DNA of 25,703 nt from an archaeon (GCA_024277355.1 JAJRVL010000006.1:1-25703); one strand, 5' to 3'. Shown: positions 1 to 20,162, counted from the first letter of the stretch. A program made the numbers and translations. The notes: generated from the letters alone by a model not told the origin.

Positions 1-1826
1 CAATAGGAGAAAAACAAAAAAAATTCATTGAAAAACAGGAATTAATGAACAAACAATTAGAAGAAACAAAAGAAAGAATAGAAGAAACAAGAATTTTACT
101 GTCAGAAAAAGAAATAAAAGCAGAAAAAGAAAAAATAAAAATAGAAGAAACAAAACAAAAAATAGAAGAAATAGAAATAAAATTAGAAGAAAAAAGCATT
201 CAGCTTGAAAAAGAAAAAGAAAAATACTTCAATAAAAAAAGCGAAACAGAAAGAATAGAAAAAGAAATTAAAATGCATTCATCTTTTTTAAAAGAAATAC
301 AAGAAGACTTAAACAACCAGAAATTAAAAGAAAACGCTTTATCATTAAAAAACACAGAAAAAAAATTACAGGAATTAGAAAAAGATTTAGAAGTAAAAGA
401 AAAAAAAGAAGAAATAAAAGAAGAAATACTGAAATTAAAAGAAATAAAAGAAAAACTAGAAAAAGAAATTAAAGCAATACTTGAAACATTAGATGAATTA
501 GGAAGCGTTGAAAGAGAAGAAAAAATAAAAAAACAAAAAAATGAAGCAGAAAAAAGTTTAGAAGAAAGCATAAAAGAAAAAGAAAAAATCAATTTAATTC
601 TAGAAGAAATAAAAAAAGAAAAAGAAGAAACAAAAAATCAGTTAACTGAATTCAAAAAAGAAGTTTTAACTGAAAACAGTTTAATTGAAGAAGTAAACAA
701 AGAAAAAATTTTACTAAAAGAATTAGAATTGAAAAGAAATTCAATAAAAGAAAACTTAAAAGAAAAAGAAGAAACAAAAAGTGATTCAGGAAATGAAATA
801 GAAGAAACCGAAGAAGAAATAATTGAAACAGAAAAAAACATTAAAAAAGAAGAAGAAAAAACAACTGAAGTTGAAAAAAAAATAAAAGAATTAACCATTG
901 AACTGGAAAAACAAAACAGGCAGAGTCATTTATTTTATGAAGAAAAAGAAAAAGTAAATAAAAAAATAGAAGGAATAAAAGACAAAAAATCAGTAACTGA
1001 AAATTCAATAGCAAAACTATCAAGGCAGGAAAATGAAATAAGAATCGACAACTCAAAAAATGAAGTAAGGATTGCAGATTTAGAAGAAGAAATTAAATCA
1101 TTTGAAGAAACAGAAGTTATTGAAGGAAAAGAATTAGGTGAATTAAAAGAAAGACTGAATAAAATTGAAAGAAGAATTAAAGAATTAGGCGCAGTAAACA
1201 TGAAAGCAATTGATTCATTCCAGGGACAAACAAAAGAATTAATTGAAATAAAAGAAAAAGCACAAAAATTAGATGAAGAAAGAATTGCAGTATTAGACTT
1301 AATTGAAAAAATAGAAATAAAAAGAGCTTCAGCTTTTAATGAATGCTTTACAGAAATAAATGAAAACTTTAAGAAAATGTATTATTCTTTAGGAGAAAAA
1401 GAAGGAATACTGAAATTAACTGAAGAAACTGATAAAACTAAAGCAGGATTATTAATTGAAGCAAAATATTCAGAAAATAAAATGATTAATATTGATTCAA
1501 TGAGCGGAGGAGAAAAAACTTTAACAGCCTTAGCATTTTTGTTTTCAATTCAGTTATATAAGCCTGCTCCATTTTATGTTTTTGATGAAGCAGACGCAGC
1601 ATTAGATAAAACTAATTCATTAAAAATGGCTAAAATGATTTATGAAGTATGCAGAAAAAGCCAGTTTATTGCAATAACTCATAATGATTCTTTAGTTAAA
1701 GAAGCAGATCAGATTATTGGAGTTGCATTAAACAAACAGAAAAGTTCAGTTATAGGACTGAAATTAAAAGACAAACTTGAACAAGAAATTAATGAAAATA
1801 ATAAAACTGATGTTTCAGTAAGCTGA
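1..1826 (+). CDS. smc: Chromosome segregation ATPase SMC, C-terminal ~600 aa (5'-truncated by window edge)
   Basis: The frame is open from the window edge, with no stop upstream of the first ATG at 45. About 400 aa of K/E/I-rich coiled coil precede the SMC/ABC C-terminal head: signature motif SGGEKTLTALAFLFS, Walker B FYVFDEADAALD, then ITHN. Confidence 0.9.
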   Translation, partial: IGEKQKKFIEKQELMNKQLEETKERIEETRILLSEKEIKAEKEKIKIEETKQKIEEIEIKLEEKSIQLEKEKEKYFNKKSETERIEKEIKMHSSFLKEIQEDLNNQKLKENALSLKNTEKKLQELEKDLEVKEKKEEIKEEILKLKEIKEKLEKEIKAILETLDELGSVEREEKIKKQKNEAEKSLEESIKEKEKINLILEEIKKEKEETKNQLTEFKKEVLTENSLIEEVNKEKILLKELELKRNSIKENLKEKEETKSDSGNEIEETEEEIIETEKNIKKEEEKTTEVEKKIKELTIELEKQNRQSHLFYEEKEKVNKKIEGIKDKKSVTENSIAKLSRQENEIRIDNSKNEVRIADLEEEIKSFEETEVIEGKELGELKERLNKIERRIKELGAVNMKAIDSFQGQTKELIEIKEKAQKLDEERIAVLDLIEKIEIKRASAFNECFTEINENFKKMYYSLGEKEGILKLTEETDKTKAGLLIEAKYSENKMINIDSMSGGEKTLTALAFLFSIQLYKPAPFYVFDEADAALDKTNSLKMAKMIYEVCRKSQFIAITHNDSLVKEADQIIGVALNKQKSSVIGLKLKDKLEQEINENNKTDVSVS

Positions 1827-1831
1827 TTAAA

Positions 1832-4174
1832 TTATTTTTTTTGACTGATTGCTTTTTTTGTTTTTGCTTTCAGTAGTTTAGTCTTTTTCAGGGTTTCTTT
1901 TTTTTCTTTAATTGAATCCGTTAATTCTTTTATTGAATCTTTTTTTAATTCAATTTCTTCATCGATTAATTCAGCGTATTTTTCATTGAATTCTTTAATT
2001 GAAATAAGGTTTTTTGATTTTAATTTTTTTAAGTCTCTTATTATTCTTTCTCTTGCTCTTGCTTTTTCTTTTTTTTCTTCTGATTCAATTAAATGAGAAG
2101 AAATTGAATGCATTTTAGTTCTTAATTCTTTTATCTGGAAAGAATAATCATTATTTAATTCTGAATGCTTTTCTTCTGAAATTTTTCCTTTAAAAAAAGC
2201 ATCATCTGAATTTCTTTTTAATTTTCTTATTTCATCTAACTGCTGTTCTAAAGTCTGTTCTTTTGTTTTTCTTGTAAACAGGAAAACAAAAGAAACAATA
2301 ATTAAAATTAAAAAAACAACTGCTAACGCAATTAAACCTGTGTCAGAAACTAAATTTTGTTTGGGTTTTTCTTCTGAATCAATAAAATCTGTTTCAGTAA
2401 AATCAGCATAATACGGATAAACTGAATCAGAAACAGCAAACAATTCTTCTGAAAGATAAGCTAAAGCTAAACCGCTTTTTATTTTATCTAATGCAGTTGA
2501 AGCATAACCTTGTTCTTTATAAAAGTCTGCTGCATTTAAAAAATATTTCGCATGGTCTAAATAAAGCCTGCTCCAGACAAAAGGATAATTTCTTAAAGAA
2601 AGATTTTTGTCAACTGCATTAATTTTTTCTTTTAAAAGGTTATATGATTCAGTTAAAGAAAGGTCTTTTGATTCCATTGAAGATTTAATTAAAGCATAAC
2701 TTGAAGCTGAATCAAAAGCAGTAACTAAATACCATGAATAATATTCTGCCTGCTTAGCAGAATTAAGTCTTCTTAAAATATCATCTTTTTCTGTTTCATC
2801 TAATGAATCAATTGAGTTTTCTGAAGCAATAATATAATTATCTGAATAATTTTTAAAAAAATCATCAGCCTTTACTTTTTTTTGAGACGAATTTGTTTTG
2901 GTATATAATTCTCTTGCAGTTTCAAACCAAGCTAAAGCAAACTCATAATCTTCAATTCTTTTCATCGAATCTAATTCCTGTGTTCTTGCACCAGAAGAAA
3001 TAACTATTTCAGATACATTTTCTATTTTTTCAATATTTATTTCAGCCCATAATAATCTTTGTTTTGCTGCAATATGCCATTCAAGGAAATCAATTGGAAT
3101 AAATCCATCTAAATTTTCTTTTAAATTTTCAATATTCTTTTTTAAGCCGTCAACTTTTAATACAAACAATTTTGAATCAGACTGCAAAATTGAAGGGTTC
3201 TCTGAAACGTCTTTAACTAAAGAAGCATAAACTTTTGCAATAAAAATATTATTTGCAGCTGAATACAAATAATTTTTTTCATATAATATTTCACCTTGAG
3301 TTAAACTTTGTTCAGCTGAATTCAAAGTAGTTAACAAAAAAGAAATTTCTGATCCATCTTCAATTGAAGTATTAGATAAAGCAGTTCGTGCTCCTTTAAT
3401 AGTTACTTTTGCTTCACCCAGCATTCTTTTAGATAATTCTTTCATTATTTTTAAGTCATCTGATTCAGGCAAAGGTTCAGGCAGGAATTCATTTATTTCT
3501 GAAGCTAATTCCTTTGAAGCATTAACATCAATTTCTTTTATTTCAGAAAAAGCATATTTTAATACTTCATCTATTCCTGAAACTTCAATTACTTTCATAT
3601 TCCAATTTTCTTCTGCATAATTAATTAAATTAATTGTTTTAACTGAATCATCTGTTTTAATTACCTGTCTTGATTCGCCTTTAGGAATCATAAATAATTT
3701 TAATCCAATTCTGTTTGCTTCCTCGCTTTTTGCAAAAACTCCTCCAACAGGGCCAACTTTTCCCTGATTTGAAATGGTTCCGGTTATTCCTACTTCATAA
3801 TTTAATGTTTTGTTTTGAAGCATTGAAATAGTCAATAAAGCCATTGCAGCACCTGCACTTGGCCCTTCAACAATTGAAGCATCAGAATCAATATCAAATA
3901 AGAAATCATAGTTTTTTGTTTCATCAGAATAATTTGATGCGACACTTAAAGCAGTTCTTTCAGCACTTTGAGTTGTTGTTCCAACTAAAGGATTAACATT
4001 ACTCCAGATTTCCCCTGTTCCTTCTCTAATAGTTAAATGCAAGTCAGCTGTAACTGCATCGCCTTCAGTTGTAACAGCAAAAATTTTCATTGAACCATTA
4101 GGCAGTACAGCAAAAACATTAGATAAAAGTAAAATAAAAATAAACAAACAAAAAAACTTTTTTTGGATAACCAT
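1832..4174 (-). CDS. Membrane-anchored extracytoplasmic Lon-like (S16) serine protease lacking an AAA+ module
   Basis: 780-aa ORF with an N-terminal signal peptide (KKFFCLFIFILLLSNVFA). Lon proteolytic-domain motifs: catalytic Ser context EGPSAGAAMAL (Ser106, nt 3857-3859), Lys context GPVGGVFAKSEEA (Lys149), then LFMIPKG. These are followed by a ~460-aa helical region, one TM helix GLIALAVVFLILIIVSFVFLF (nt 2276-2338) and a 147-aa K/E-rich coiled-coil tail. No Walker A motif is seen. Confidence 0.75.
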   Translation of the reverse strand: MVIQKKFFCLFIFILLLSNVFAVLPNGSMKIFAVTTEGDAVTADLHLTIREGTGEIWSNVNPLVGTTTQSAERTALSVASNYSDETKNYDFLFDIDSDASIVEGPSAGAAMALLTISMLQNKTLNYEVGITGTISNQGKVGPVGGVFAKSEEANRIGLKLFMIPKGESRQVIKTDDSVKTINLINYAEENWNMKVIEVSGIDEVLKYAFSEIKEIDVNASKELASEINEFLPEPLPESDDLKIMKELSKRMLGEAKVTIKGARTALSNTSIEDGSEISFLLTTLNSAEQSLTQGEILYEKNYLYSAANNIFIAKVYASLVKDVSENPSILQSDSKLFVLKVDGLKKNIENLKENLDGFIPIDFLEWHIAAKQRLLWAEINIEKIENVSEIVISSGARTQELDSMKRIEDYEFALAWFETARELYTKTNSSQKKVKADDFFKNYSDNYIIASENSIDSLDETEKDDILRRLNSAKQAEYYSWYLVTAFDSASSYALIKSSMESKDLSLTESYNLLKEKINAVDKNLSLRNYPFVWSRLYLDHAKYFLNAADFYKEQGYASTALDKIKSGLALAYLSEELFAVSDSVYPYYADFTETDFIDSEEKPKQNLVSDTGLIALAVVFLILIIVSFVFLFTRKTKEQTLEQQLDEIRKLKRNSDDAFFKGKISEEKHSELNNDYSFQIKELRTKMHSISSHLIESEEKKEKARARERIIRDLKKLKSKNLISIKEFNEKYAELIDEEIELKKDSIKELTDSIKEKKETLKKTKLLKAKTKKAISQKK

Positions 4175-10396: not shown

Positions 10397-11892
<1,496 letters not shown>

Positions 11893-11898
11893 TTATTT

Positions 11899-13212
11899 AT
11901 GTCTCTCTTAATAAAAAACGCAAAAATTCAGGAAAAAAATAAAACTTTAATTAAAAATGTTTTATGCAGAAACGGAAAAATTTATTCTATTACTAATTCT
12001 TTTCCTAAATCAGATAAAACAATTGACGCAAAAGGCAAATTACTTCTTTCAGGAGGAATAGATGTTCATGTTCATTTTAGGGAGCCTGGAATGAAATATA
12101 AAGCTGAATGGAAAACTGAAAGTAAGGCAGCAGCAGCAGGGGGCATAACTACAGTTTTTGACATGCCAAATACTTTGCCTCCAACTTTTACAGTAAAAGA
12201 ATTAAACAAGAAAAAAAATATTGCAGAGAAAAATTCTCTTGTAAATTTTGGTTTTCATTTTGGAACAGAAAAATTAAATGAAATAAAAAAAGCAAAAATT
12301 AATTCAGTTAAAATTTTCATGGGAAAAAGCACAGGAAATTTAGTGACAGAAAACAAAAAAATTAAAGAAATTTTTAAGCTTGCAAAACAAAAAAATTTAG
12401 TTTGTGTATTGCATGCAGAAGATGAAAAAATAATTGAAGAAAACATAAAGAAAGCAAAAGAAAAAAAATGGAATAATGTAAAGTTTCATAACAAAATAAG
12501 AAATGAAAAAGCAGAAATAAAAGCAATAAAAAATGCATTAAGTTTACAGAAAAAAATCGGAAACAAAATTCATTTTGCTCATGTTTCAACAGCAAAAGGA
12601 TTAAAAGAAATAATTAAATCTAAGAAAACAGGAAAAGGAAAGATTACCTGTGAAGTCTGTCCGCATCATTTGTTTTTAAATGAAAAGGATTTGAAAAGAC
12701 TTGGAAATTTTGGAAAAATGAATCCTCCTTTAAGGACAAAAAAAGACAATGAATTTTTATGGAAAAGTTTAATTCAGGGAAAAGTAGATATTGTTTCAAC
12801 AGATCATGCTCCTCACTTAAAAAAAGAAAAACAAAAAAAGTTTTTTGATGCGCCGTCAGGAGTAACCGGAGTTGAAACAGTTTATCCTTTGCTGTTAAAT
12901 AAAGTTGCAGAAAAGAAAATCAAGCTGGAAAAAGTAATTGAAGTTTTATGCGAGAATCCTGCAAGAATTTTTGGAATAAAAAACAAGGGAAAAATCAAGA
13001 AAGGATTTGATGCAGATTTAGTTTTAGTTGACTTAAACAAAAAATGGACAATAAGAAATAAAGAAATGCATTCAAAATGCAAATGGACTCCTTTTAATGG
13101 CAAAAAAATCAGTGGGAAAATTGAAACAACAATTATTGGCGGAAAAATAGTTTTTAATAAAACAAAGTTTCATAATAAATTTAAAGGAAAAAAAATTATT
13201 TTAACTAAATAA
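11899..13212 (+). CDS. pyrC: Dihydroorotase
   Basis: 437 aa with amidohydrolase metal-ligand motifs DVHVHFREPG, HAED and STDHAPH. Follows pyrB-pyrI. A T-rich tract follows the stop codon. Confidence 0.88.
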   Translation: MSLLIKNAKIQEKNKTLIKNVLCRNGKIYSITNSFPKSDKTIDAKGKLLLSGGIDVHVHFREPGMKYKAEWKTESKAAAAGGITTVFDMPNTLPPTFTVKELNKKKNIAEKNSLVNFGFHFGTEKLNEIKKAKINSVKIFMGKSTGNLVTENKKIKEIFKLAKQKNLVCVLHAEDEKIIEENIKKAKEKKWNNVKFHNKIRNEKAEIKAIKNALSLQKKIGNKIHFAHVSTAKGLKEIIKSKKTGKGKITCEVCPHHLFLNEKDLKRLGNFGKMNPPLRTKKDNEFLWKSLIQGKVDIVSTDHAPHLKKEKQKKFFDAPSGVTGVETVYPLLLNKVAEKKIKLEKVIEVLCENPARIFGIKNKGKIKKGFDADLVLVDLNKKWTIRNKEMHSKCKWTPFNGKKISGKIETTIIGGKIVFNKTKFHNKFKGKKIILTK

Positions 13213-13230
13213 ATTTCTTTTCGTTTTTTG
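13213..13230 (+). terminator. Putative oligo-T terminator after pyrC
   Basis: ATTTCTTTTCGTTTTTTG directly follows the pyrC stop. Archaeal termination commonly uses T-runs. Confidence 0.35.
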
Positions 13231-13249
13231 TCGTTGCATTCCATTTAAA
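13219..13249 (+). repeat. Direct repeat copy 1 (TTTCGTTTTTTGTCGTTGCATTCCATTTAAA)
   Basis: 28 of 31 nt identical to 14975-15005, in the same orientation. Lies between the pyrC stop and the 3' end of the lipoprotein cassette. Confidence 0.6.
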
Positions 13250-13250
13250 T

Positions 13251-13287
13251 GTTTTAGAAGAAATTAGCATCCGCATGCTTCTAAAAC
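13251..13287. terminator. Perfect 10-bp inverted repeat at the convergent pyrC / lipoprotein gene junction
   Basis: GTTTTAGAAG (13251-13260) and CTTCTAAAAC (13278-13287) flank a 17-nt loop and span the lipoprotein stop codon. This could be a bidirectional terminator hairpin, but a 10-bp AT-rich stem could also arise by chance. Confidence 0.3.
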
Positions 13288-13719
13288 TTCTTCTTTAGTC
13301 ATGTTTAATTGGTTTAGTTCTTGTTCTGTTAAATCAGCTGTACAGTTAGCACTTATTAATTTACAATAAGGAACATAATTTGTTTGACATTTGTTTTCTT
13401 CACAGCTATTATCTTCTAATATTGTTAAAGATATTCTTGATGGTTCTCCTTCAATTTTGCAGTCTGAACAGTTTTCTGTTTTCCATTGATTTATTTTTTC
13501 TGCAGATTCTTTATTTACTGATATAAAATCTGGGTTAAATAAAGAGCAACATTTTAATTGAACTACTTCACAATCTTCATCTGCTTCACAATATTTTTCT
13601 TGTGCTGTTATTTCTTCAGAATAAGCAATCAAGTCAGTATTAGGTTCATTAAACTGCAAACAACCACTAAAAAAGATTGCTAAAAATATAACTGTTATTA
13701 AAATTATTTTTTTGTTCAT
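13264..13719 (-). CDS. Cysteine-rich secreted lipoprotein (lipobox FFSGC), unknown function
   Basis: 151 aa. Signal peptide MNKKIILITVIFLAIFFSGC. The mature part contains 12 further cysteines (CC, CxxC-like spacings) and is acidic. The promoter motif TATAAAAACTTTAG (plus-strand reading) lies 22 nt from the ATG, with no SD. Confidence 0.65.
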   Translation of the reverse strand: MNKKIILITVIFLAIFFSGCLQFNEPNTDLIAYSEEITAQEKYCEADEDCEVVQLKCCSLFNPDFISVNKESAEKINQWKTENCSDCKIEGEPSRISLTILEDNSCEENKCQTNYVPYCKLISANCTADLTEQELNQLNMTKEEVLEACGC

Positions 13720-13741
13720 TGAATAAAATACACATAACTAA

Positions 13742-13755
13742 TATAAAAACTTTAG
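13742..13755 (-). promoter_or_regulatory. Putative archaeal BRE/TATA promoter of lipoprotein gene 13264-13719 (leaderless-type spacing)
   Basis: The coding strand reads CTAAAGTTTTTATA. Its proximal edge is 22 nt upstream of the ATG, with no SD in between. The same motif precedes the other two lipoprotein genes. Confidence 0.4.
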
Positions 13756-13897
13756 AGTTCAATAGCAAATCATGTTTTTTTCCTTAATCTTGACAAACCA
13801 TAAATTACAGTACTTCCTACACTGTAAGAGACAATTAAACTAAAAATGAAATTCAATAAAATCAGGATTAGTCTCATCAAATCTAAGAATATTCCAG

Positions 13898-14359
13898 CTA
13901 ATAAAATTTAGTTACAAATGCACTTACATAACAACCTATTGGTTCTCCATCATCTTTTAGTATAACTCTTGAAACATAAATGTCTAATTCTTTTGGAACT
14001 TGAATTTCTTTTTTTACTTGGAATTCGTAAACACGAATATTTCCTTTGAAAGCTTTGCATTTTTCAAAATCTTCTTTACATAATCCTTTTGATCTTTCAT
14101 CAATTCCACATTCCCAGCATATGTTTTCCCAGTTTGAATATTGTGTGGAATGAATAGAGTTTTTTTGTGTAATTTGAAAATCTGTAGTTTTAATGGAATA
14201 ATTATTAAAATTAGGAAATTTTACTTCATCTATACTATAGAAACATTCTTTTGCTTTTTCTTCTAACTCTTGCTCAGATAATTTTTGTTCTTGTATACAT
14301 CCGCTTAATAAAACTAAAAGAATTAAGCTTACTAATAAAATAATTTTTTTATTCATCAA
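13898..14359 (-). CDS. Secreted lipoprotein (lipobox LLSGC), paralog of 14500-14928
   Basis: 153 aa. Signal peptide MMNKKIILLVSLILLVLLSGC. Shares LSEQELEEKAKECFYSIDEV and a C-terminal VILKDDGEPIG block with the neighbouring gene. Confidence 0.65.
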   Translation of the reverse strand: MMNKKIILLVSLILLVLLSGCIQEQKLSEQELEEKAKECFYSIDEVKFPNFNNYSIKTTDFQITQKNSIHSTQYSNWENICWECGIDERSKGLCKEDFEKCKAFKGNIRVYEFQVKKEIQVPKELDIYVSRVILKDDGEPIGCYVSAFVTKFY

Positions 14360-14399
14360 TAAAGAATATTATTAAGTTGTATAAAAGCTTTAGGATTTG
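14245..14399 (-). repeat. Diverged tandem duplication, copy A (promoter + 5' coding region of lipoprotein gene)
   Basis: Aligns by eye over ~155 nt with 14817-14972 at roughly 70-75% identity. The aligned region covers the TATA motif, the start codon, the signal peptide and the EQEL.EKAKE.FYS block. Confidence 0.6.
14380..14393 (-). promoter_or_regulatory. Putative archaeal BRE/TATA promoter of lipoprotein gene 13898-14359
   Basis: The coding strand reads CTAAAGCTTTTATA, 20 nt upstream of the ATG, with no SD. Confidence 0.4.
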
Positions 14400-14499
14400 T
14401 TTTCAGTAAAAAATAAGACAAGCTTTTTCGTCAAGAACATAATTCTTTTTTTGAAGAAAAGACAATCAAAAAATTGGTTTATAGTATTTATTTAAATTT

Positions 14500-14928
14500 C
14501 TATTCAATGGCATGTTCTATTCCATTAATGTAACTAGCTATTAGTTCTCCATTGTTTTTTAGTATTACTTTTCCCCACATAGTTCTGTCATCCCGTTTTG
14601 TTTCTTCTTTTAGTTGAAAATTATATATATGAACTTTTTCATTTAAGGAATAAAATTCATTTTCAGTCAATAAGCATTCTTCTGGCAGGGCAAGTTCGCA
14701 ATCAAAGTCATATAAATCAAATTCTTTAGAATAAATTATTTCAGTTTTCTTTAAAACAAAATCAGAAGATTTAAAAGAAACCCCTATTATATCTACTTCA
14801 CTAAGGCTGTAAAAATATTCTTTTGCTTTTTCTTTTAGTTCTTGTTCTGTTAGTTTTTTTTGTTGAGTGCATCCACTAAACAAAATTAAAAGAATTATTC
14901 CTGTTAAGAAAAGAATTTTTTTATTCAT
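14500..14928 (-). CDS. Secreted lipoprotein (lipobox LFSGC), paralog of 13898-14359
   Basis: 142 aa. Signal peptide MNKKILFLTGIILLILFSGC. LTEQELKEKAKEYFYSLSEV and VILKNNGELIA align with the neighbouring paralog. Confidence 0.65.
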   Translation of the reverse strand: MNKKILFLTGIILLILFSGCTQQKKLTEQELKEKAKEYFYSLSEVDIIGVSFKSSDFVLKKTEIIYSKEFDLYDFDCELALPEECLLTENEFYSLNEKVHIYNFQLKEETKRDDRTMWGKVILKNNGELIASYINGIEHAIE

Positions 14929-14972
14929 TAGATAAAGAATATAATTAAGTTATATAAAAGCTTTAGGTTTAG
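14817..14972 (-). repeat. Diverged tandem duplication, copy B (promoter + 5' coding region of lipoprotein gene)
   Basis: See copy A. The start codons of the two paralogs are 569 nt apart. Confidence 0.6.
14953..14966 (-). promoter_or_regulatory. Putative archaeal BRE/TATA promoter of lipoprotein gene 14500-14928
   Basis: The coding strand reads CTAAAGCTTTTATA, 24 nt upstream of the ATG, with no SD. Confidence 0.4.
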
Positions 14973-14974
14973 TG

Positions 14975-15005
14975 TTTCGTCATTTGTCGTTGCATTCAAT
15001 TTAAA
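14975..15005 (+). repeat. Direct repeat copy 2 (TTTCGTCATTTGTCGTTGCATTCAATTTAAA)
   Basis: 28 of 31 nt identical to 13219-13249. Lies between the lipoprotein cassette promoter and the giant gene. Its ATTTAAA end sits ~50 nt upstream of the TTG start, so it may double as the TATA element of the giant gene. Confidence 0.6.
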
Positions 15006-15056
15006 ACTTTTGTGTGTCAGAAATTTTCTGGGAGAATTGAGGGGGAATAAATTACG

Positions 15057-18000
15057 TTGAAGAATAAGTTAGTTTTAATTCTATTTTTCTTGTTAATTTT
15101 TTCTATTAATGTTCAAGCTGGAATTATTAATTATTCTTTTGAAGTTCAGAATTCTGATTATAATACTGATGCTTTAGGCTGGACAGAATTTAAAACTAAT
15201 GCACTTTTTCAGGATTATAATGCTGAAACACAAGTTTGTTCTAATCAGTCAGTAACACCCTCAATATTAGCTGACACTTTTATAAGAGAATTTTCTGAAG
15301 ACGCAAGAAACGGAAATTATATATTTAAAACATTTTCTTCTGAAGTTGGAGTTTCTTTTACAAGAAATAATTATTATATAGGGGAATTAGGAATAGACAC
15401 AAATATTTGTTTTTGGATTAAAGGATGGGTTAGTGGAGGAACAGGATTTAGATTAGGGTTCTGGGATAATATGACAAACAATTATTGCAGAGTAGCAGAT
15501 ATTGGCAGTGTTGATGAAAATTGGAATTATGCTTGTGGAACATTTAAGACAGGATCATATAATGGATTTTTAACTTTAGAAAAAGAATGGCGAACTACAG
15601 GAATAGAACTTTTATGGGATGGATTTGATTCTTCTAGTTTAGGAATAAATATTCTAAAACCAACTCCAAACCAATACATAAAACAAAGAGATTTATTAAC
15701 AGTTGAATTTGAAATACAAGATAATGACTTTAATTTCCTTAATCTTAATCCTGAAGGAATACAATATAGATTAGATTTGCTTGATGATTGGAATTCAATT
15801 GAAGCAAGTGAATTTGGCATAAATAGCTTTAACACTACAGCTCCAGACGAGACAGGAGAACATATTTTAACAATAAGAGCATTGGTTAACGGAGCTTGGA
15901 TTCATGGAAGCACAAAATATTTAGTTTCTCCTCAAAAAATAGACTTAAAAATAAATTTCATTAAAGCTATTCAAGTAATAGAAGATGTAAACTTAGTTTC
16001 AGGGAAAGCAACTGCTGTAAAAGTTGGAGTGAACAACACAAATAACGCAGAAGAGGATCAGAATGTTACAGTAGAACTAACATTTAACGGACAAGAATAC
16101 CCATTAACTGAAGAATTTTATGGAGACTATAACTTCATATTCTATGTAAATAATCCATTTGAAATAGAAGATGCAACAGTAGTATTTTACTTAACTGCGA
16201 AAATAGATCCACAAAACAATTATGAAGAAAATGATGAAAACAACAATTCATTAGTGCAAGAAGTAATAGTAAAAAGAACTAGTGATTTAAATGTGTTATT
16301 TATTGCATTTGATTATGGACAAGATCTGGATTCATTTGAAAAAATTGTTGCACAATCAATAGAATTCTTGGAAGCAACTTATCCAATAATGAACTATGAT
16401 TATTATCTGGTTAATTATACAGGTAATTTAAATCTTGACCAGAACTATAATAAAATTTTATTTCGGCTAATGAAAGAAATTAAATTAATTGGGGAAGATG
16501 TTAATAAGAATAAGTTTAAGGCATTTAGATTTGTAGGAGTTGTTCCTAATGGATGGCATGTTGATCATAATGAATTTGAATCAAAAGGAGCAACACCTTG
16601 CAAAAAAGATACAATTCCTTTGGAATGTAAACCATACTTTTTGATAGAAGATGGTAATCGTTCTGTTTTAGCTCATGAGATAGGTCACACTTATGGGTTA
16701 AATGAAGAGTATGAGTTAAAGCTTAACGAACCCAATCCAAGTCCTACTGATTGTGGCATTACTTTTTGTTCTAATTATCAACAAAAATATATTGATAAAA
16801 ATTGGTGCTTAGGAAGTGTTGTCACCAATGGAATTTGGGTTAATGAAAAGAAAGTTTTTGTAAATCAGGATCTTAACATTTGTAATTATTCAAATCCTTA
16901 TTCTTATATGGGGACTGCTTTATATTCCCCGCCAGATAGATGGACTACTTTTAATGAATATGATTATTTATCTGAGAAGTTATATTTAGGGGGTCAATTT
17001 GGTAAGAGTAATAACCAAGATTTAAATATTTTATTTGTTAAGGGTTTTGTTGATAAGAATTTAAATGTAGAGTTGGATCATTTATATAAGATTGATAGAA
17101 CTGAAGAATTTGGGTCAAGTGATGGAAACTGTTTAATTAGGACATTGGATTCTAATGTATCAATAATAAATGACTATAATTTTTCAGTAAACTTTGATCT
17201 TTTTAGCGAAGGAATAAACACAATTGATTATTCCCCTTTTGTTTTGGGAATTAATTTTAATGAAAACTTGAATTCAGTTCAAGTGATTTGTAACGGTGAA
17301 CTGAAAACAGAAAGAAGCATTTCACAAAATGCTCCGACAGTATCTATTAGTTTCCCTAAAACAGGAGATATCTGGACTGACACAAATACACTAAGTTGGA
17401 CATCAGATGATTTAGATGGAGATGAATTATCTTTTGCTCTTTATTATAGTGCTGACAATGGTTCAATTTGGATTCCAATACAATCAGATGTCAATGATTT
17501 AAGTTATTCTTTTCCTTCATGGATAGTTGAAGGAACAAATCAATTTAAGTTTAAAGTGATTGCATCTGATGGAATACTTTCAAGTGAAAGCATTTCAGAT
17601 ACTTTCACAGTTGCAAATGCAGATATTAATGTTACGCCAAATGAAAAGAATTTTGGAACAATTAATAATTTGCAGAATGTTTCTCAAGACTTTAATATTG
17701 TTAATTCTGGTAATGCTGACTTAAATGTGTTTGATGAAAATCATTCAGGTAATTTAAGTTTAACTGGATTGAGTTTGCCTATTGTTTTACAGCCAGGAGA
17801 AAACCATGTTTTTAGTGTAGAATTGAATGTTTTAGGCATGAGTTTAGGAGAATTCACTGAAGACATTGCTTTGGGTTCAAATGATCCAAATCAAATAGTT
17901 AAAAGAATTAAAGTTTATGGAGTAATTGAACAAGCTAAACCTGACTTTACTATTAAAGCAGATAACATTACTTTTAATCCTGTTTATCCTGAACAAGATG

Positions 18001-20162: not shown

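What the first reader, a model, noticed from the sequence alone, without database searches (positions are those of the whole stretch)
15057..20162. Giant 1701-aa secreted zincin with a mosaic of adhesion-type domains and no anchor
**Architecture read from the sequence, in order:**
- signal peptide
- N-terminal jelly-roll-like region (NYSFEVQN...LGWTEF, reminiscent of CBM4/9-type starts)
- Ig-like module
- CARDB-like module ending DPQNNYEENDENNNS
- metallopeptidase domain with HEIGHTYGLNEEYE (nt 16674-16715)
- beta-sandwich with Asp-box SADNGSIW
- ASH/choice-of-anchor-D-like module (NFGTIN...FNIVNSGNADLNV)
- CARDB with an embedded LamG
- two more CARDB-like sandwiches
- a ~210-aa C-terminal domain

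The HExxHxxGLxxEY spacing resembles the HExxHxxGLxDEY signature I recall for InhA-like M6 peptidases. That is from memory and unverified.

No TM segment, PGF-CTERM-like tail or lipobox is visible, so how the protein stays on the cell is open. It is by far the largest gene in the window and heads a translationally coupled operon. The likely role is protease plus lectin/adhesin at the cell surface, and the combination may be an undescribed architecture.
Basis: partly seen in the sequence, partly recalled or inferred. Interest (0 to 1): 0.7.

Follow-up and report, generated by a model that had tools for sequence, protein, structure and literature searches.

The report
Giant secreted archaeal metzincin protease-adhesin
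This is a real 1,701-residue secreted protein of a tiny symbiotic-type (DPANN) archaeon that puts a zinc protease of an uncatalogued family on a long stalk of adhesion-type domains, probably for working on another cell's surface; it is a new variant of a known kind, not a new principle.

Summary
ORF 15057-20162 (+) encodes 1,701 aa with a signal peptide and no other hydrophobic segment.

- **Catalytic domain.** HEIGHTYGLNEEYE lies exactly at nt 16674-16715. Pfam and NCBIfam miss aa 403-660. It belongs to a small uncurated family (35 clusters; consensus AHExGHTYGLCDEY...FMG). Its AlphaFold model (pLDDT 69) matches adamalysin/ADAM/fragilysin metzincins. The family profile aligns with snapalysin at the zinc motif.
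- **M6 idea.** M6 (InhA) membership is not met.
- **Other domains.** LamG nested in CARDB and a HYDIN/VesB-type Ig domain pass Pfam cut-offs. The other sandwiches are only weakly supported.
- **Relatives.** Eight or so orthologs (43-52% identity) are all unnamed proteins of Micrarchaeota/Iainarchaeota-type MAGs.
- **Cassette.** The gene is always coupled to a roughly 410-830-aa secreted partner. In this window the partner is broken by one in-frame TAA. Small membrane-tethered proteins sit upstream.
- **Divergence.** A syntenic relative has housekeeping proteins 70-92% identical, but its giant is 47% identical and carries a different N-terminal head. Head, LamG and part of the protease vary most.
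- **Mobile context.** Other copies adjoin T4SS-like genes.

Best reading: an extracellular protease-adhesin for cell-cell contact, held in trans.

The parts
15039..15045 (+). GAGGGGG Shine-Dalgarno-like run, 11 nt upstream of the TTG start
   Evidence: Read from the sequence.
15057..15119 (+). Signal peptide, aa 1-21, cleaved after VQA; no lipobox
   Evidence: This is the only hydrophobic segment in the Kyte-Doolittle scan. Orthologs that are complete at the N-terminus have equivalent signals.
15120..15650 (+). Variable N-terminal 'head', aa 22-198, fold unknown
   Evidence: No Pfam, NCBIfam or PDB hit. It is 9-30% identical or non-homologous among orthologs. A BNR_2-like region replaces it in P0002 and P0004, and TSP3 repeats in P0007.
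15651..15932 (+). Ig-like sandwich, aa 199-292
   Evidence: The conserved core of all orthologs starts here. The equivalent region of P0002 gives a sub-threshold Big_7 hit, E = 8e-5.
15933..16262 (+). CARDB-like module 1, aa 293-402, ending DPQNNYEENDENNNS
   Evidence: 51-63% identical among orthologs. Pfam CARDB is far below threshold (E = 2.4). hhalign against the true CARDB gives probability 25%, E = 8e-4.
16263..17036 (+). Metzincin-fold catalytic domain, aa 403-660
   Evidence: 35 family members found at E <= 1e-3. AlphaFold2 gives pLDDT 69 and pTM 0.70. Foldseek top hits are adamalysin II, ADAM33, ecarin, fragilysin and ADAMTS-5. The family profile against PDB gives snapalysin at E = 2e-5.
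16674..16715 (+). Zinc-binding motif HEIGHTYGLNEEYE. H540 and H544 are the proposed ligands, E541 the general base, E550 the proposed third ligand; Y552 is conserved.
   Evidence: H540, E541, H544 and Y552 are invariant, and position 550 is always D or E. The motif aligns with snapalysin HETGHVLGLPDHY.
16908..16910 (+). Met618 within YSYMG, candidate Met-turn
   Evidence: M618 and G619 are invariant in orthologs and near-invariant as 'FMG' across the family. In the model the residue lies just before the C-terminal helix.
17037..17351 (+). Accessory beta-sandwich, aa 661-765, that always follows the catalytic domain
   Evidence: Its first part (to about aa 700) is included in family alignment A3, and the rest appears in the family consensus A2 (LLVSGxIxKNG...GxYxxxLDxN). 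The model shows strands there.
17352..17612 (+). fn3-like sandwich with Asp-box SADNGSIW, aa 766-852
   Evidence: D800 and W805 are invariant. The fn3 hit is sub-threshold. The same module appears in the consensus of the family relatives.
17613..17927 (+). HYDIN/VesB/choice-of-anchor-D-type Ig domain, aa 853-957
   Evidence: PF22544 scores 26.7 bits against a cut-off of 25.5. NF012200 scores 32.9 against 45. It is the most conserved module, 56-86% identical.
17928..18191 (+). CARDB, N-terminal half, aa 958-1045
   Evidence: PF07705 scores 27.9 bits against 22.7, covering profile positions 1-68.
18192..18719 (+). LamG (concanavalin-A-like) domain nested inside the CARDB, aa 1046-1221
   Evidence: PF13385, E = 2.4e-25. 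It is absent from ortholog P0006/L013, where the CARDB is uninterrupted. Identity between most orthologs is only 24-30%.
18720..18911 (+). CARDB, C-terminal half, aa 1222-1285
   Evidence: CARDB profile positions 48-98 match about aa 1223-1273.
18912..19526 (+). Two further beta-sandwich modules, aa 1286-1385 and 1386-1490
   Evidence: 42-73% identical among orthologs. Resemblance to CARDB is weak (hhalign probability 36% and 11%).
19527..20162 (+). Conserved C-terminal domain, aa 1491-1701, plus the TGA stop; all-beta, blade-like repeats, ends ...LMYSLFDVNYFYWGNN
   Evidence: 57-73% identical. AlphaFold2 gives pLDDT 56. Nearly all of the listed Foldseek hits are beta-propeller enzymes at low TM, about 0.3. 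No TM helix. No PDB or Pfam sequence hit.
20162..22495 (+). Conserved secreted partner gene. Its ATG overlaps the giant's TGA. It is interrupted here by an in-frame TAA at 20708-20710.
   Evidence: The fused 777-aa translation aligns end to end with intact single ORFs in L001 (35%) and L013 (61%). The TAA aligns with Ala182. A partner follows the giant in every locus that extends far enough downstream.
14500..14928 (-). Small lipoprotein, type A (lipobox LFSGC), divergent from the giant gene
   Evidence: Translation. Homologs lie upstream of the giant in L001 and L006.
13898..14359 (-). Small lipoprotein, type A paralog (lipobox LLSGC)
13264..13719 (-). Small Cys-rich lipoprotein, type B (lipobox FFSGC, ends ACGC)
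   Evidence: Homologs lie upstream of the giant in L003/L004 and L007, where they carry an N-terminal signal anchor.

Best explanation
**What it is.** The gene encodes a Sec-exported extracellular protein of a DPANN archaeon. The nearest genome is a Candidatus Micrarchaeota MAG.

**Catalytic module.**
- The only enzymatic module is aa 403-660. It is a metzincin-type zinc endopeptidase of a small, uncurated family with consensus AHExGHTYGLCDEY ... FMG ... RW.
- Zinc is proposed to be held by His540, His544 and Glu550. Glu541 would act as general base, and Tyr552 and Met618 would buttress the site.

**Non-catalytic modules.**
- The protease is mounted on a conserved stalk of Ig/CARDB/fn3/HYDIN-type beta-sandwiches.
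- The stalk also carries a variable N-terminal head and a variable LamG lectin-type domain inserted in a CARDB loop.
- It ends in a conserved beta-propeller-blade-like C-terminal domain.

**Cassette.**
- The gene is translationally coupled to a conserved secreted partner.
- One to three small membrane-tethered proteins (lipoproteins or signal-anchored) are encoded divergently upstream.

**Proposed working (inferred).**
- The stalk projects the binding modules (head, LamG) and the protease away from the cell.
- There they bind and cleave glycoprotein surface layers of another cell, either the host or a mating partner.
- The protein has no anchor of its own. It would be retained non-covalently through its conserved C-terminal domain, the partner and/or the tethered small proteins.
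- The binding and catalytic modules diversify quickly and are exchanged between lineages, while the scaffold is conserved.

**Shown versus inferred.**
- Shown: the ORF, the export signal, the absence of an anchor, the metzincin fold and the conserved active-site residues, the domain identities above cut-off, the conserved gene cassette, and the mosaic divergence.
- Inferred: catalytic activity, substrate, retention in trans, and a role in cell-cell interaction.
For: **ORF and export.**
- ORF, signal peptide and motif coordinates are confirmed.
- No other hydrophobic segment exists.

**Archaeal context.** Flanking genes include Spt5-NGN, L10P, FtsZ and pyrB/I/C/E/F.

**Catalytic domain.**
- Active-site residues are invariant in 8 orthologs and in a 23-sequence family alignment.
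- The exhaustive search found 35 family members at E <= 1e-3.
- Their regions align over the whole roughly 300-aa domain.
- The family profile hits snapalysin 1C7K/1KUH at E = 2.2e-5, placing GLCDEY on the Asp-ligand motif GLPDHY and sharing a C-x-N-P motif.
- AlphaFold2 gives pLDDT 69 and pTM 0.70. The model has the beta-alpha-beta-alpha-beta ... active-site helix ... C-terminal helix order.
- Foldseek PDB top hits are all metzincins: 1DTH, ADAM33, ecarin, fragilysin and ADAMTS-5, at E = 2e-4 to 2e-3 and target-normalised TM up to 0.62.

**Other domains.** LamG, CARDB and HYDIN-Ig are above Pfam cut-offs.

**Cassette.**
- A partner follows the giant, and the two genes are coupled, in every locus that extends far enough.
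- The upstream small proteins are membrane-tethered.

**Mosaic divergence.**
- The syntenic MAG locus L006 has FtsZ at 90%, Spt5 at 92% and pyrB/I/E at 82-84% identity. Its giant is only 47% identical, and the alignment starts at aa 197.
- Per-domain identity shows the scaffold at 55-86%, against the head at 9-30%, the protease N-subdomain at 23-60% and LamG at 24-30%.

**Literature.**
- LamG-like proteins are expanded in Micrarchaeota, lie on genomic islands, and have been proposed to mediate host contact (PMC5498576).
- The SPEARE proteins of Nanohaloarchaeota combine a protease with LamG and adhesion domains (PMC6642349).
Against: - No curated peptidase family reaches threshold.
- The model is of moderate confidence and has low-confidence loops (residues 150-178 of the model). 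I could not measure ligand geometry.
- Several close orthologs carry a 5-7-residue insertion between the second His and the acidic residue, so the third ligand is assigned by conservation only.
- The third ligand here is Glu, not the family's usual Asp. This copy has also lost both cysteines of the family's conserved pair.
- No activity, localisation or expression data exist.
- Nothing shows that the partner or the lipoproteins bind the giant protein.
- In this window the partner carries a premature stop.
- Sequence alone does not establish a host-interaction role.
Confidence: 0.6

Rival explanations
1. It is a released nutritional protease. The protein is secreted free into the medium to digest environmental proteins for an auxotrophic, small-genome archaeon. 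The beta-sandwich and LamG modules only target it to particulate or glycosylated substrates, as carbohydrate-binding modules do on secreted hydrolases.
For: - It has a signal peptide and no anchor of any kind.
- The catalytic residues are intact.
- More distant family members are short secreted enzymes in which the protease domain follows directly after the signal peptide.
Against: - A 1,700-aa scaffold with conserved stalk domains, a strictly conserved co-translated partner and adjacent membrane-tethered proteins is more than substrate targeting needs.
- The head and LamG modules are swapped between otherwise close genomes. That pattern is more typical of partner-specific recognition than of bulk protein digestion.
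Confidence: 0.2
2. It is cargo of a conjugative, T4SS-type mobile element. The giant protein and its partner act as the contact adhesin and envelope-breaching enzyme that stabilise the donor-recipient (or symbiont-host) junction for a VirB2/VirB4-type apparatus. This would be analogous to surface adhesins such as PrgB in monoderm conjugation. The copy in this window is a chromosomal remnant of such an element.
For: - In two independent loci (L002 and L003/L004) the cassette lies head-to-head with genes for a TrbC/VirB2-type pilin, a PrgI/TraC-like protein and a DUF87/TraG VirB4-type ATPase. L002 also has an integrase.
- The syntenic L006 keeps a TrbC fragment, 89% identical to L002's over 38 aa, between pyrC and the cassette. 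It also keeps a homolog of an L002 small protein.
- The cassette interrupts an otherwise conserved pyr gene cluster.
- The giant's similarity pattern disagrees with genome relatedness: 52% to an Iainarchaeum-labelled MAG, against 47% to the syntenic relative.
- Monoderm conjugation relies on surface adhesins (PMC12102498).
Against: - The window itself has no T4SS gene, integrase, tRNA or remnant.
- Locus L001 shows none either.
- No orthologs lie on IMG/VR contigs.
- GC content of the cassette equals that of the flanks.
- Adjacency in 2-3 of about 8 loci could simply reflect islands that collect surface genes.
Confidence: 0.15
3. It is a non-catalytic adhesin or envelope component. The zincin-like module is a degenerate binding domain, and the protein is a purely structural surface fibre.
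For: - The catalytic domain's N-subdomain is the least conserved homologous part, at 23-25% identity to the orthologs.
- This copy has Glu for the usual Asp and has lost the family's cysteine pair.
- No curated peptidase model reaches threshold.
Against: - H540, E541, H544, the D/E at 550, Y552 and M618/G619 are invariant across all orthologs despite 23-60% overall identity in that region. The three HExxH residues are invariant across the wider family, and Y552 and the Met are near-invariant there.
- That pattern is the signature of a maintained active site.
Confidence: 0.08

Closest known systems
Snapalysin (MEROPS M7; Streptomyces small neutral protease, PDB 1C7K/1KUH)
   Same: - It is the only solved protein that the family profile reaches at a significant E-value (2.2e-5).
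- The alignment covers the active-site helix and the ligand loop: AHExGHxxGLxD-x-Y, with Asp as third zinc ligand, followed by a shared C-x-N-P motif.
- Both are secreted Met-zincins with an acidic third ligand.
   Different: - Snapalysin is a 132-residue single-domain enzyme whose Met-turn lies about 10 residues after the ligand (PMC3890501).
- Here the domain is about 260 aa and the conserved Met lies about 68 residues downstream.
- It has a Cys-rich insert and sits inside a 1,701-aa multidomain protein.
- Pfam PF02031 is not reached: there is no hit for the window, and 2 of 29 relatives hit at E >= 0.002.
Adamalysin/reprolysin/ADAM catalytic domains (MEROPS M12B), including fragilysin and ADAMDEC1
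   Same: - They give the best fold matches: 1DTH, 1R54, 9CLP, 3HY9 and 7POL.
- The order of secondary-structure elements is the same.
- ADAMDEC1 is a precedent for an Asp third ligand in this fold (HEXXHXXGXXD; PMC5174729).
   Different: - Sequence identity is 9-15%.
- The Reprolysin_2/4/5 Pfam models reach only 12.8-15.1 bits against cut-offs of 22-27.
- The third ligand is Glu/Asp, not His.
- There are no disintegrin or Cys-rich ADAM modules and no recognisable cysteine-switch prodomain.
   Same: - The motif is similar in style: HExxHxxGLxDEY against HEIGHTYGLNEEY.
- Both are secreted metzincins with an acidic third ligand followed by beta-sandwich domains.
   Different: - PF05547 scores 12.8 bits against 22, and TIGR03296 scores 13.9 against 110.8. 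Both matches are confined to about 25 residues at the motif.
- No M6 structure appears among the PDB profile hits at E <= 10 or in the top 50 fold matches.
SPEARE proteins of Nanohaloarchaeota (PMC6642349) and the LamG-rich surface proteins of Micrarchaeota Mia14 (PMC5498576)
   Same: - These are giant, extracytoplasmic DPANN proteins that combine a protease with LamG and other adhesion domains.
- They are proposed to mediate attachment to, and access into, a host cell.
- The LamG loci lie on genomic islands.
   Different: - SPEARE proteins carry a serine protease, a toxin-like domain, a transmembrane anchor and an intracellular restriction-endonuclease domain.
- Here the protease is a metzincin, and there is no TM segment and no nuclease.
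- The two are not homologous beyond LamG.
Pappalysins (MEROPS M43B; PAPP-A2, PDB 8SL1)
   Same: This is an analogous design: a large secreted metzincin that combines a LamG-like module with the catalytic domain and many accessory domains. The LamG region gives the only whole-protein PDB sequence hit (E = 0.0016).
   Different: - The similarity is confined to LamG.
- The catalytic domains are not detectably related in sequence.
- Pappalysins have His as third ligand.
- The domain order differs.

Membership tests
Metzincin clan MA(M) | HEXXHXXGXX(H/D) zinc-binding consensus on the active-site helix and following loop | tested here: met
   The window has H540-E-I-G-H544-T-Y-G547-L-N-E550. His, Glu and His are invariant, and position 550 is D or E in all orthologs. 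The wider family has GLCDEY. Variant: the acidic residue is Glu here, and five orthologs have a 5-7-aa insertion before it.
Metzincin clan MA(M) | Conserved Met-turn beneath the metal site | tested here: inconclusive
   M618 and G619 are invariant in orthologs and near-invariant as FMG across the family. The residue sits before the C-terminal helix in the model. I could not read coordinates to confirm that it packs under the zinc site.
Metzincin clan MA(M) | Catalytic-domain fold: five-stranded sheet, active-site helix and C-terminal helix | tested here: met
   The AlphaFold2 model has pLDDT 69 and pTM 0.70. All top Foldseek PDB hits are metzincins, best E = 2.4e-4 and TMt 0.62.
Metzincin clan MA(M) | Zinc-dependent peptidase activity | not testable with these tools
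   This needs a biochemical assay.
Peptidase M6 (InhA/thuringilysin) | Match to PF05547 or TIGR03296 at the curated cut-off | tested here: not met
   PF05547 scores 12.8 bits against 22. TIGR03296 scores 13.9 against 110.8. Both match the motif only.
Peptidase M7 (snapalysin) | Match to PF02031 at the curated cut-off; a minimal single domain of about 130 aa | tested here: not met
   The window protein has no PF02031 hit. Relatives reach E = 0.002 at best. The local profile-to-PDB alignment has E = 2e-5 over 41 residues only. The domain here is about 260 aa.
Peptidase M12B (reprolysin/ADAM) | Match to the Reprolysin Pfam models at cut-off; His as third ligand | tested here: not met
   Reprolysin_4 scores 15.1 against 22, Reprolysin_5 scores 13.3 against 27, and Reprolysin_2 scores 12.8 against 27. 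The third ligand position is Glu/Asp. Only the fold is shared.
CARDB (PF07705) | Pfam gathering score | tested here: met
   27.9 bits against 22.7. Two stretches flank the LamG. For the three other 'CARDB-like' modules the result is inconclusive.
Laminin_G_3 / LamG jelly-roll (PF13385) | Pfam gathering score | tested here: met
   89.9 bits against 27.6, aa 1067-1216.
HYDIN/VesB/CFA65-like Ig (PF22544); choice-of-anchor D (NF012200) | Curated cut-offs | tested here: met
   PF22544 is met, at 26.7 bits against 25.5. NF012200 is not met, at 32.9 against 45.
Archaeal C-terminal sorting signals (PGF-CTERM and similar) or lipoprotein anchoring | A C-terminal hydrophobic helix with a basic tail, or an N-terminal lipobox Cys | tested here: not met
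   No hydrophobic segment exists outside aa 1-26. The C-terminus is ...DVNYFYWGNN. The signal peptide ends VQA|G and has no Cys.
SPEARE proteins | Serine protease plus restriction-endonuclease domain plus TM anchor | tested here: not met
   None of these is detected. Only LamG and adhesion-type modules are shared.

The most novel reading that the evidence does not exclude
The three-part cassette is a mobile, fast-diversifying 'contact module' of DPANN archaea. The cassette consists of the tethered small proteins, the giant metzincin-adhesin and the secreted partner.

- **Scaffold and tips.** A conserved stalk displays exchangeable recognition and cutting tips: the N-terminal head, the LamG nested in CARDB, and the protease N-subdomain. 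These tips are swapped between lineages to match different host envelopes.
- **Tethering.** The giant protein has no anchor because it is held, and perhaps kept inactive toward its own cell, by the adjacent membrane-tethered small proteins acting as docking or inhibitor subunits.
- **Spread.** The module spreads with VirB2/VirB4-type elements and has become fixed inside the pyr gene cluster in this lineage.
Probability: 0.2. Interest if true: 0.7.

Novelty: new variant of a known kind. Interest (0 to 1): 0.45.

Why it matters
**Biological question.** DPANN archaea live attached to other cells, and how they recognise and breach a host envelope is largely unknown. This locus offers a concrete, testable candidate with four features:
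- a surface protease of a metzincin family that no curated library covers;
- lectin-type modules that are exchanged between close relatives;
- a conserved partner protein;
- conserved membrane-tethered neighbours.

**What it would add if active.**
- A new family in the metzincin clan.
- An archaeal example of an acidic-ligand adamalysin-like fold.
- Defined variable modules whose sequence could be correlated with host identity in metagenomes.

**What it does not change.** It does not alter any general principle. Large multidomain surface proteins with protease and LamG domains are already a recognised theme in DPANN genomes.

Tried and rejected
**Curated libraries on the catalytic region.** Pfam, NCBIfam and PHROGs gave only sub-threshold, motif-only hits.

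**M6 membership.** Rejected on curated scores.

**Shared domain between giant and partner.** I tested whether the giant's C-terminal domain and the partner's conserved C-terminal domain are homologous halves of one fold. hhalign gave probability 0.3%, and BLASTP found nothing.

**Internal repeats in the C-terminal domain.** Not significant by hhalign self-comparison. The four blade-like repeats are seen by eye only.

**N-terminal head as CBM4/9.** No hit in Pfam, NCBIfam or PDB.

**Partner and lipoprotein homologs next to distant family members (L009, L010).** None found.

**Viral origin.** IMG/VR holds only LamG-level matches.

**tRNA, Rfam elements or integrase in the window as signs of an integration site.** None found.

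**TAA recoding.** Unlikely, because TAA also ends the partner gene.

**Searches that could not run or added little.**
- The profile search of the word-indexed protein database with A3 returned only 7 proteins.
- The literature search for DPANN metalloprotease adhesins returned irrelevant papers.


Full report
**1. The observation.**

The window is AT-rich, with GC about 0.22-0.33, and is archaeal. It encodes Spt5-NGN, ribosomal proteins L1, L10P and L11, FtsZ, and the pyrimidine genes pyrB, pyrI and a dihydroorotase-type amidohydrolase upstream, with pyrE and pyrF downstream.

ORF 15057-20162 (+) is real, at 1,701 codons, and is by far the longest ORF. It starts at TTG, 11 nt after a GAGGGGG run. 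No Met occurs in the first ~140 residues, so only this start gives the signal peptide MKNKLVLILFFLLIFSINVQA|G.

A Kyte-Doolittle scan finds no hydrophobic segment other than this signal. That holds for the protein, for all orthologs complete at the N-terminus, and for the downstream partner. The C-terminus (...DVNYFYWGNN) is not a PGF-CTERM-type tail, and the signal has no lipobox cysteine. 'Secreted, no anchor' is therefore confirmed. HEIGHTYGLNEEYE is at nt 16674-16715, as stated.

**2. Domain content.**

Domains above Pfam gathering scores:
- Laminin_G_3 at aa 1067-1216, E = 2.4e-25.
- CARDB at aa 961-1034 (profile positions 1-68), with a second stretch at about aa 1223-1273 (profile positions 48-98).
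- HYDIN/VesB-like Ig at aa 857-953.

The LamG is thus inserted inside a CARDB domain. This is confirmed by a natural variant: ortholog P0006 (locus L013) has the CARDB uninterrupted and no LamG.

The Asp-box SADNGSIW lies in an fn3-like module whose D800 and W805 are invariant.

The remaining modules have only weak or no sequence support:
- The 'CARDB-like' module before the protease and the two late sandwiches resemble the true CARDB only weakly (hhalign probability 11-36%).
- The N-terminal 177 residues hit nothing.

**3. The protease domain.**

No curated model recognises it. The best scores are Reprolysin_4 at 15.1 bits, M6 at 12.8 bits and TIGR03296 at 13.9 bits. All are far below cut-off and cover only the motif.

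An exhaustive phmmer search of 1.84 billion representatives with aa 400-700 found 35 proteins at E <= 1e-3. In nearly all of them the similarity spans a whole domain of about 300 aa. They share these features:
- the motif AHExGHTYGLCDEY;
- an invariant or near-invariant FMG;
- an RW...Y.HL helix;
- a following beta-sandwich.

None of them hits a peptidase Pfam family above threshold either.

A profile of 23 members reaches snapalysin (M7; 1C7K/1KUH) at E = 2.2e-5. It aligns GLCDEY with GLPDHY, which contains snapalysin's Asp zinc ligand, and it aligns a shared C-x-N-P motif.

AlphaFold2 on that alignment gives a moderate model, with pLDDT 69 and pTM 0.70. The model has the metzincin order of elements: strand, helix, strand, long helix, strands, active-site helix carrying H138/E139/H142 of the model, long loops, and a C-terminal helix after the conserved Met.

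Foldseek against the PDB returns metzincins only at the top: adamalysin II 1DTH, ADAM33, ecarin, fragilysin and ADAMTS-5. E-values are 2e-4 to 2e-3 and target-normalised TM reaches 0.62.

In the eight orthologs, A539, H540, E541, H544, Y552, M618 and G619 are invariant and residue 550 is always D or E.

I conclude that aa 403-660 is a metzincin-fold domain with an acidic third ligand. It belongs to a family outside Pfam (2025 copy) and NCBIfam (2026).

Caveats:
- Five orthologs have a 5-7-residue insertion between the second His and the acidic residue.
- This copy has Asn and Glu where the family has its two cysteines (GLCDEY...CPN). Losing both together suggests that they form a disulfide in the other members. 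This is inference.

**4. Relatives and context.**

Full-length orthologs are few. They comprise eight clusters at 90% identity, 43-52% identical to the query. All are named 'hypothetical', 'LamG-like' or 'CARDB domain' proteins from Candidatus Micrarchaeota, 'archaeon', Iainarchaeum-labelled or Nanoarchaeota-labelled MAGs. One MAG carries two copies (L005 and L007).

*The partner.* In every locus that extends far enough downstream, the giant gene is followed by a secreted partner of 411-826 aa, with a 4-nt overlap or a 2-nt gap. The partner's last ~250 residues are 57-67% identical between loci. It has no significant family hit; there is only a sub-threshold OmpL47-type small-barrel match.

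*The partner in this window.* The two ORFs 20162-20710 and 20726-22495 are in the same frame, separated by one TAA. The fused translation aligns end to end with the intact single proteins of L001 (35%) and L013 (61%). The TAA sits opposite Ala182, between perfectly conserved flanks.

*Small upstream proteins.* Divergently upstream lie three small proteins with lipoboxes (LFSGC, LLSGC, FFSGC). Homologs or analogous small lipoproteins or signal-anchored proteins occupy the same position in the other loci where the upstream region is available.

**5. Evolutionary pattern.**

Locus L006 (Micrarchaeota MAG OS_PC_MetaG.mb.82; L011 is the same organism from another sample) is syntenic with the window from L11 through pyrF:

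| Gene | Amino-acid identity to the window |
|---|---|
| FtsZ | 90% |
| Spt5 | 92% |
| pyrB | 82% |
| pyrI | 84% |
| pyrC | 70% |
| pyrE | 84% |
| pyrF | 78% |

DNA identity in the flanks is about 80%. Yet the giant protein at the same position, between pyrC and pyrE, is only 47% identical. That is less than to an Iainarchaeum-labelled MAG (52%). The alignment starts at aa 197, because L006 carries a different and longer N-terminal region (BNR_2-like in the P0004/P0002 type).

Per-domain identities across all orthologs show a conserved scaffold and three hypervariable parts.

Conserved scaffold:

| Module | Identity among orthologs |
|---|---|
| HYDIN-type Ig | 56-86% |
| Other sandwiches | about 40-73% |
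| C-terminal domain | 57-73% |

Hypervariable parts:

| Module | Identity among orthologs |
|---|---|
| N-terminal head | non-homologous, or 9-30% |
| N-terminal subdomain of the protease | 23-60% |
| LamG | 24-30% for most pairs; absent in one |

Mobile-element context:
- In L002 and L003/L004 the cassette lies beside genes for a TrbC/VirB2-type pilin, a PrgI/TraC-like protein and a DUF87/TraG-type ATPase. L002 also has an integrase.
- L006 retains a TrbC fragment between pyrC and the cassette.
- The window has no such remnant, no tRNA and no Rfam element.
- IMG/VR holds no ortholog.

**6. The C-terminal domain.**

It has no sequence relative in Pfam or PDB. Its model is poor, with pLDDT 56 overall but 64-84 per ten-residue block for residues 71-160. 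Nearly all of the listed Foldseek hits are beta-propeller enzymes (GH43, GH62, GH117 and sialidases), at low TM of about 0.3.

By eye there are four blade-like repeats with an x-D-G-x-x-hydrophobic-strand pattern. I treat 'propeller-blade-like' as tentative. The domain is not related to the partner's conserved C-terminal domain.

**7. Interpretation.**

The best-supported reading is an exported, catalytically competent metzincin displayed on a long beta-sandwich stalk together with lectin-type modules. It is made together with a secreted partner and next to membrane-tethered small proteins.

Four observations favour a cell-cell contact role, with retention in trans:
- the protein has no anchor of its own;
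- its scaffold, C-terminal domain and neighbours are conserved;
- its likely binding and cutting parts are the ones that vary or are swapped between close genomes;
- DPANN archaea depend on contact with other cells, and LamG-rich surface proteins on genomic islands have been noted in Micrarchaeota (PMC5498576). Protease-plus-LamG giants have been noted in Nanohaloarchaeota (PMC6642349).

That role, the substrate and the trans-anchoring are inference.

The rivals are a released nutritional protease, an adhesin or breaching enzyme that is cargo of a T4SS-type element (compare the adhesin dependence of monoderm conjugation, PMC12102498), and an inactive adhesin.

**8. Novelty and score.**

The catalytic family is uncurated, and the full architecture is unnamed in all source records retrieved here and did not surface in my literature searches. 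Every component, though, is a known kind (metzincin, LamG, CARDB, Ig-like), and giant protease/adhesin surface proteins are a known DPANN theme. I rate it a new variant of a known kind, interest 0.45.

The more novel reading is a mobile, module-swapping contact cassette with trans-acting tether or inhibitor lipoproteins. The evidence does not exclude it, and I give it a probability of about 0.2.

Noticed in passing
window 20162-22495 (TAA at 20708-20710): The two ORFs after the giant gene are one conserved partner gene interrupted by a single in-frame TAA. Intact orthologs (L013, 774 aa, 61% identical; L001, 762 aa) align straight across it, and the TAA sits opposite an Ala. It is a nonsense allele, a recent pseudogene or a sequence error. 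The signal peptide would be separated from the conserved C-terminal domain.
   Followed up: yes
window 13264-14928 (- strand): Three tandem small lipoprotein genes (lipoboxes FFSGC, LLSGC, LFSGC) lie divergent from the giant gene. Two are paralogs, and one is Cys-rich and ends in CGC. Homologous or analogous membrane-tethered small proteins lie upstream of the giant gene in other loci. Their function is unknown; tether or inhibitor are possibilities.
   Followed up: partly
window 10445-23931 compared with L006:3831-18981: The cassette (lipoproteins, giant, partner) splits an otherwise contiguous pyrimidine gene cluster (pyrB-pyrI-pyrC | cassette | pyrE-pyrF). It sits at the same position in a related Micrarchaeota MAG. 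The flanking proteins are 70-92% identical, but the cassette proteins are only 44-66% identical, and the head domain is different.
   Followed up: yes
L002:304-6136, L003:4158-9386, L006:6667-6780: In other lineages the cassette lies beside a T4SS-like gene set: a TrbC/VirB2-type pilin, a PrgI/TraC-like protein, a DUF87/TraG VirB4-like ATPase and DUF6438 lipoproteins. L002 also has an integrase. The syntenic L006 keeps an 89%-identical fragment of the pilin gene next to pyrC, which suggests a mobile-element origin.
   Followed up: partly
L013:415-5439 (P0006): A natural ortholog lacks the LamG insertion, and its CARDB domain is continuous. LamG domains of the other orthologs are mostly only 24-30% identical to each other, which suggests that the insert is exchanged as a cassette.
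   Followed up: partly
window 16698-16731 (aa 548-559): This copy has Asn549 and Glu559 where the wider family has the two cysteines of GLCDEY...CPN. The simultaneous loss suggests that they form a disulfide in other members. Five close orthologs instead carry a 5-7-residue insertion between the second His and the acidic ligand.
   Followed up: partly
L005 and L007 (both from MAG JBDRFE01): One MAG carries two diverged paralogs of the giant gene (P0005 and P0008) on different contigs.
   Followed up: no
window 1832-4174 (- strand): A 780-aa ORF has its Lon_C proteolytic domain match near the N-terminus (aa 86-209) and no ATPase domain hit, which is an unusual layout for a Lon-type protease.
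   Followed up: no
window 1-1000: The first kilobase has very low GC (0.215) and a strong AT skew (0.58). It lies within an SMC_N-type ORF (45-1826).
   Followed up: no
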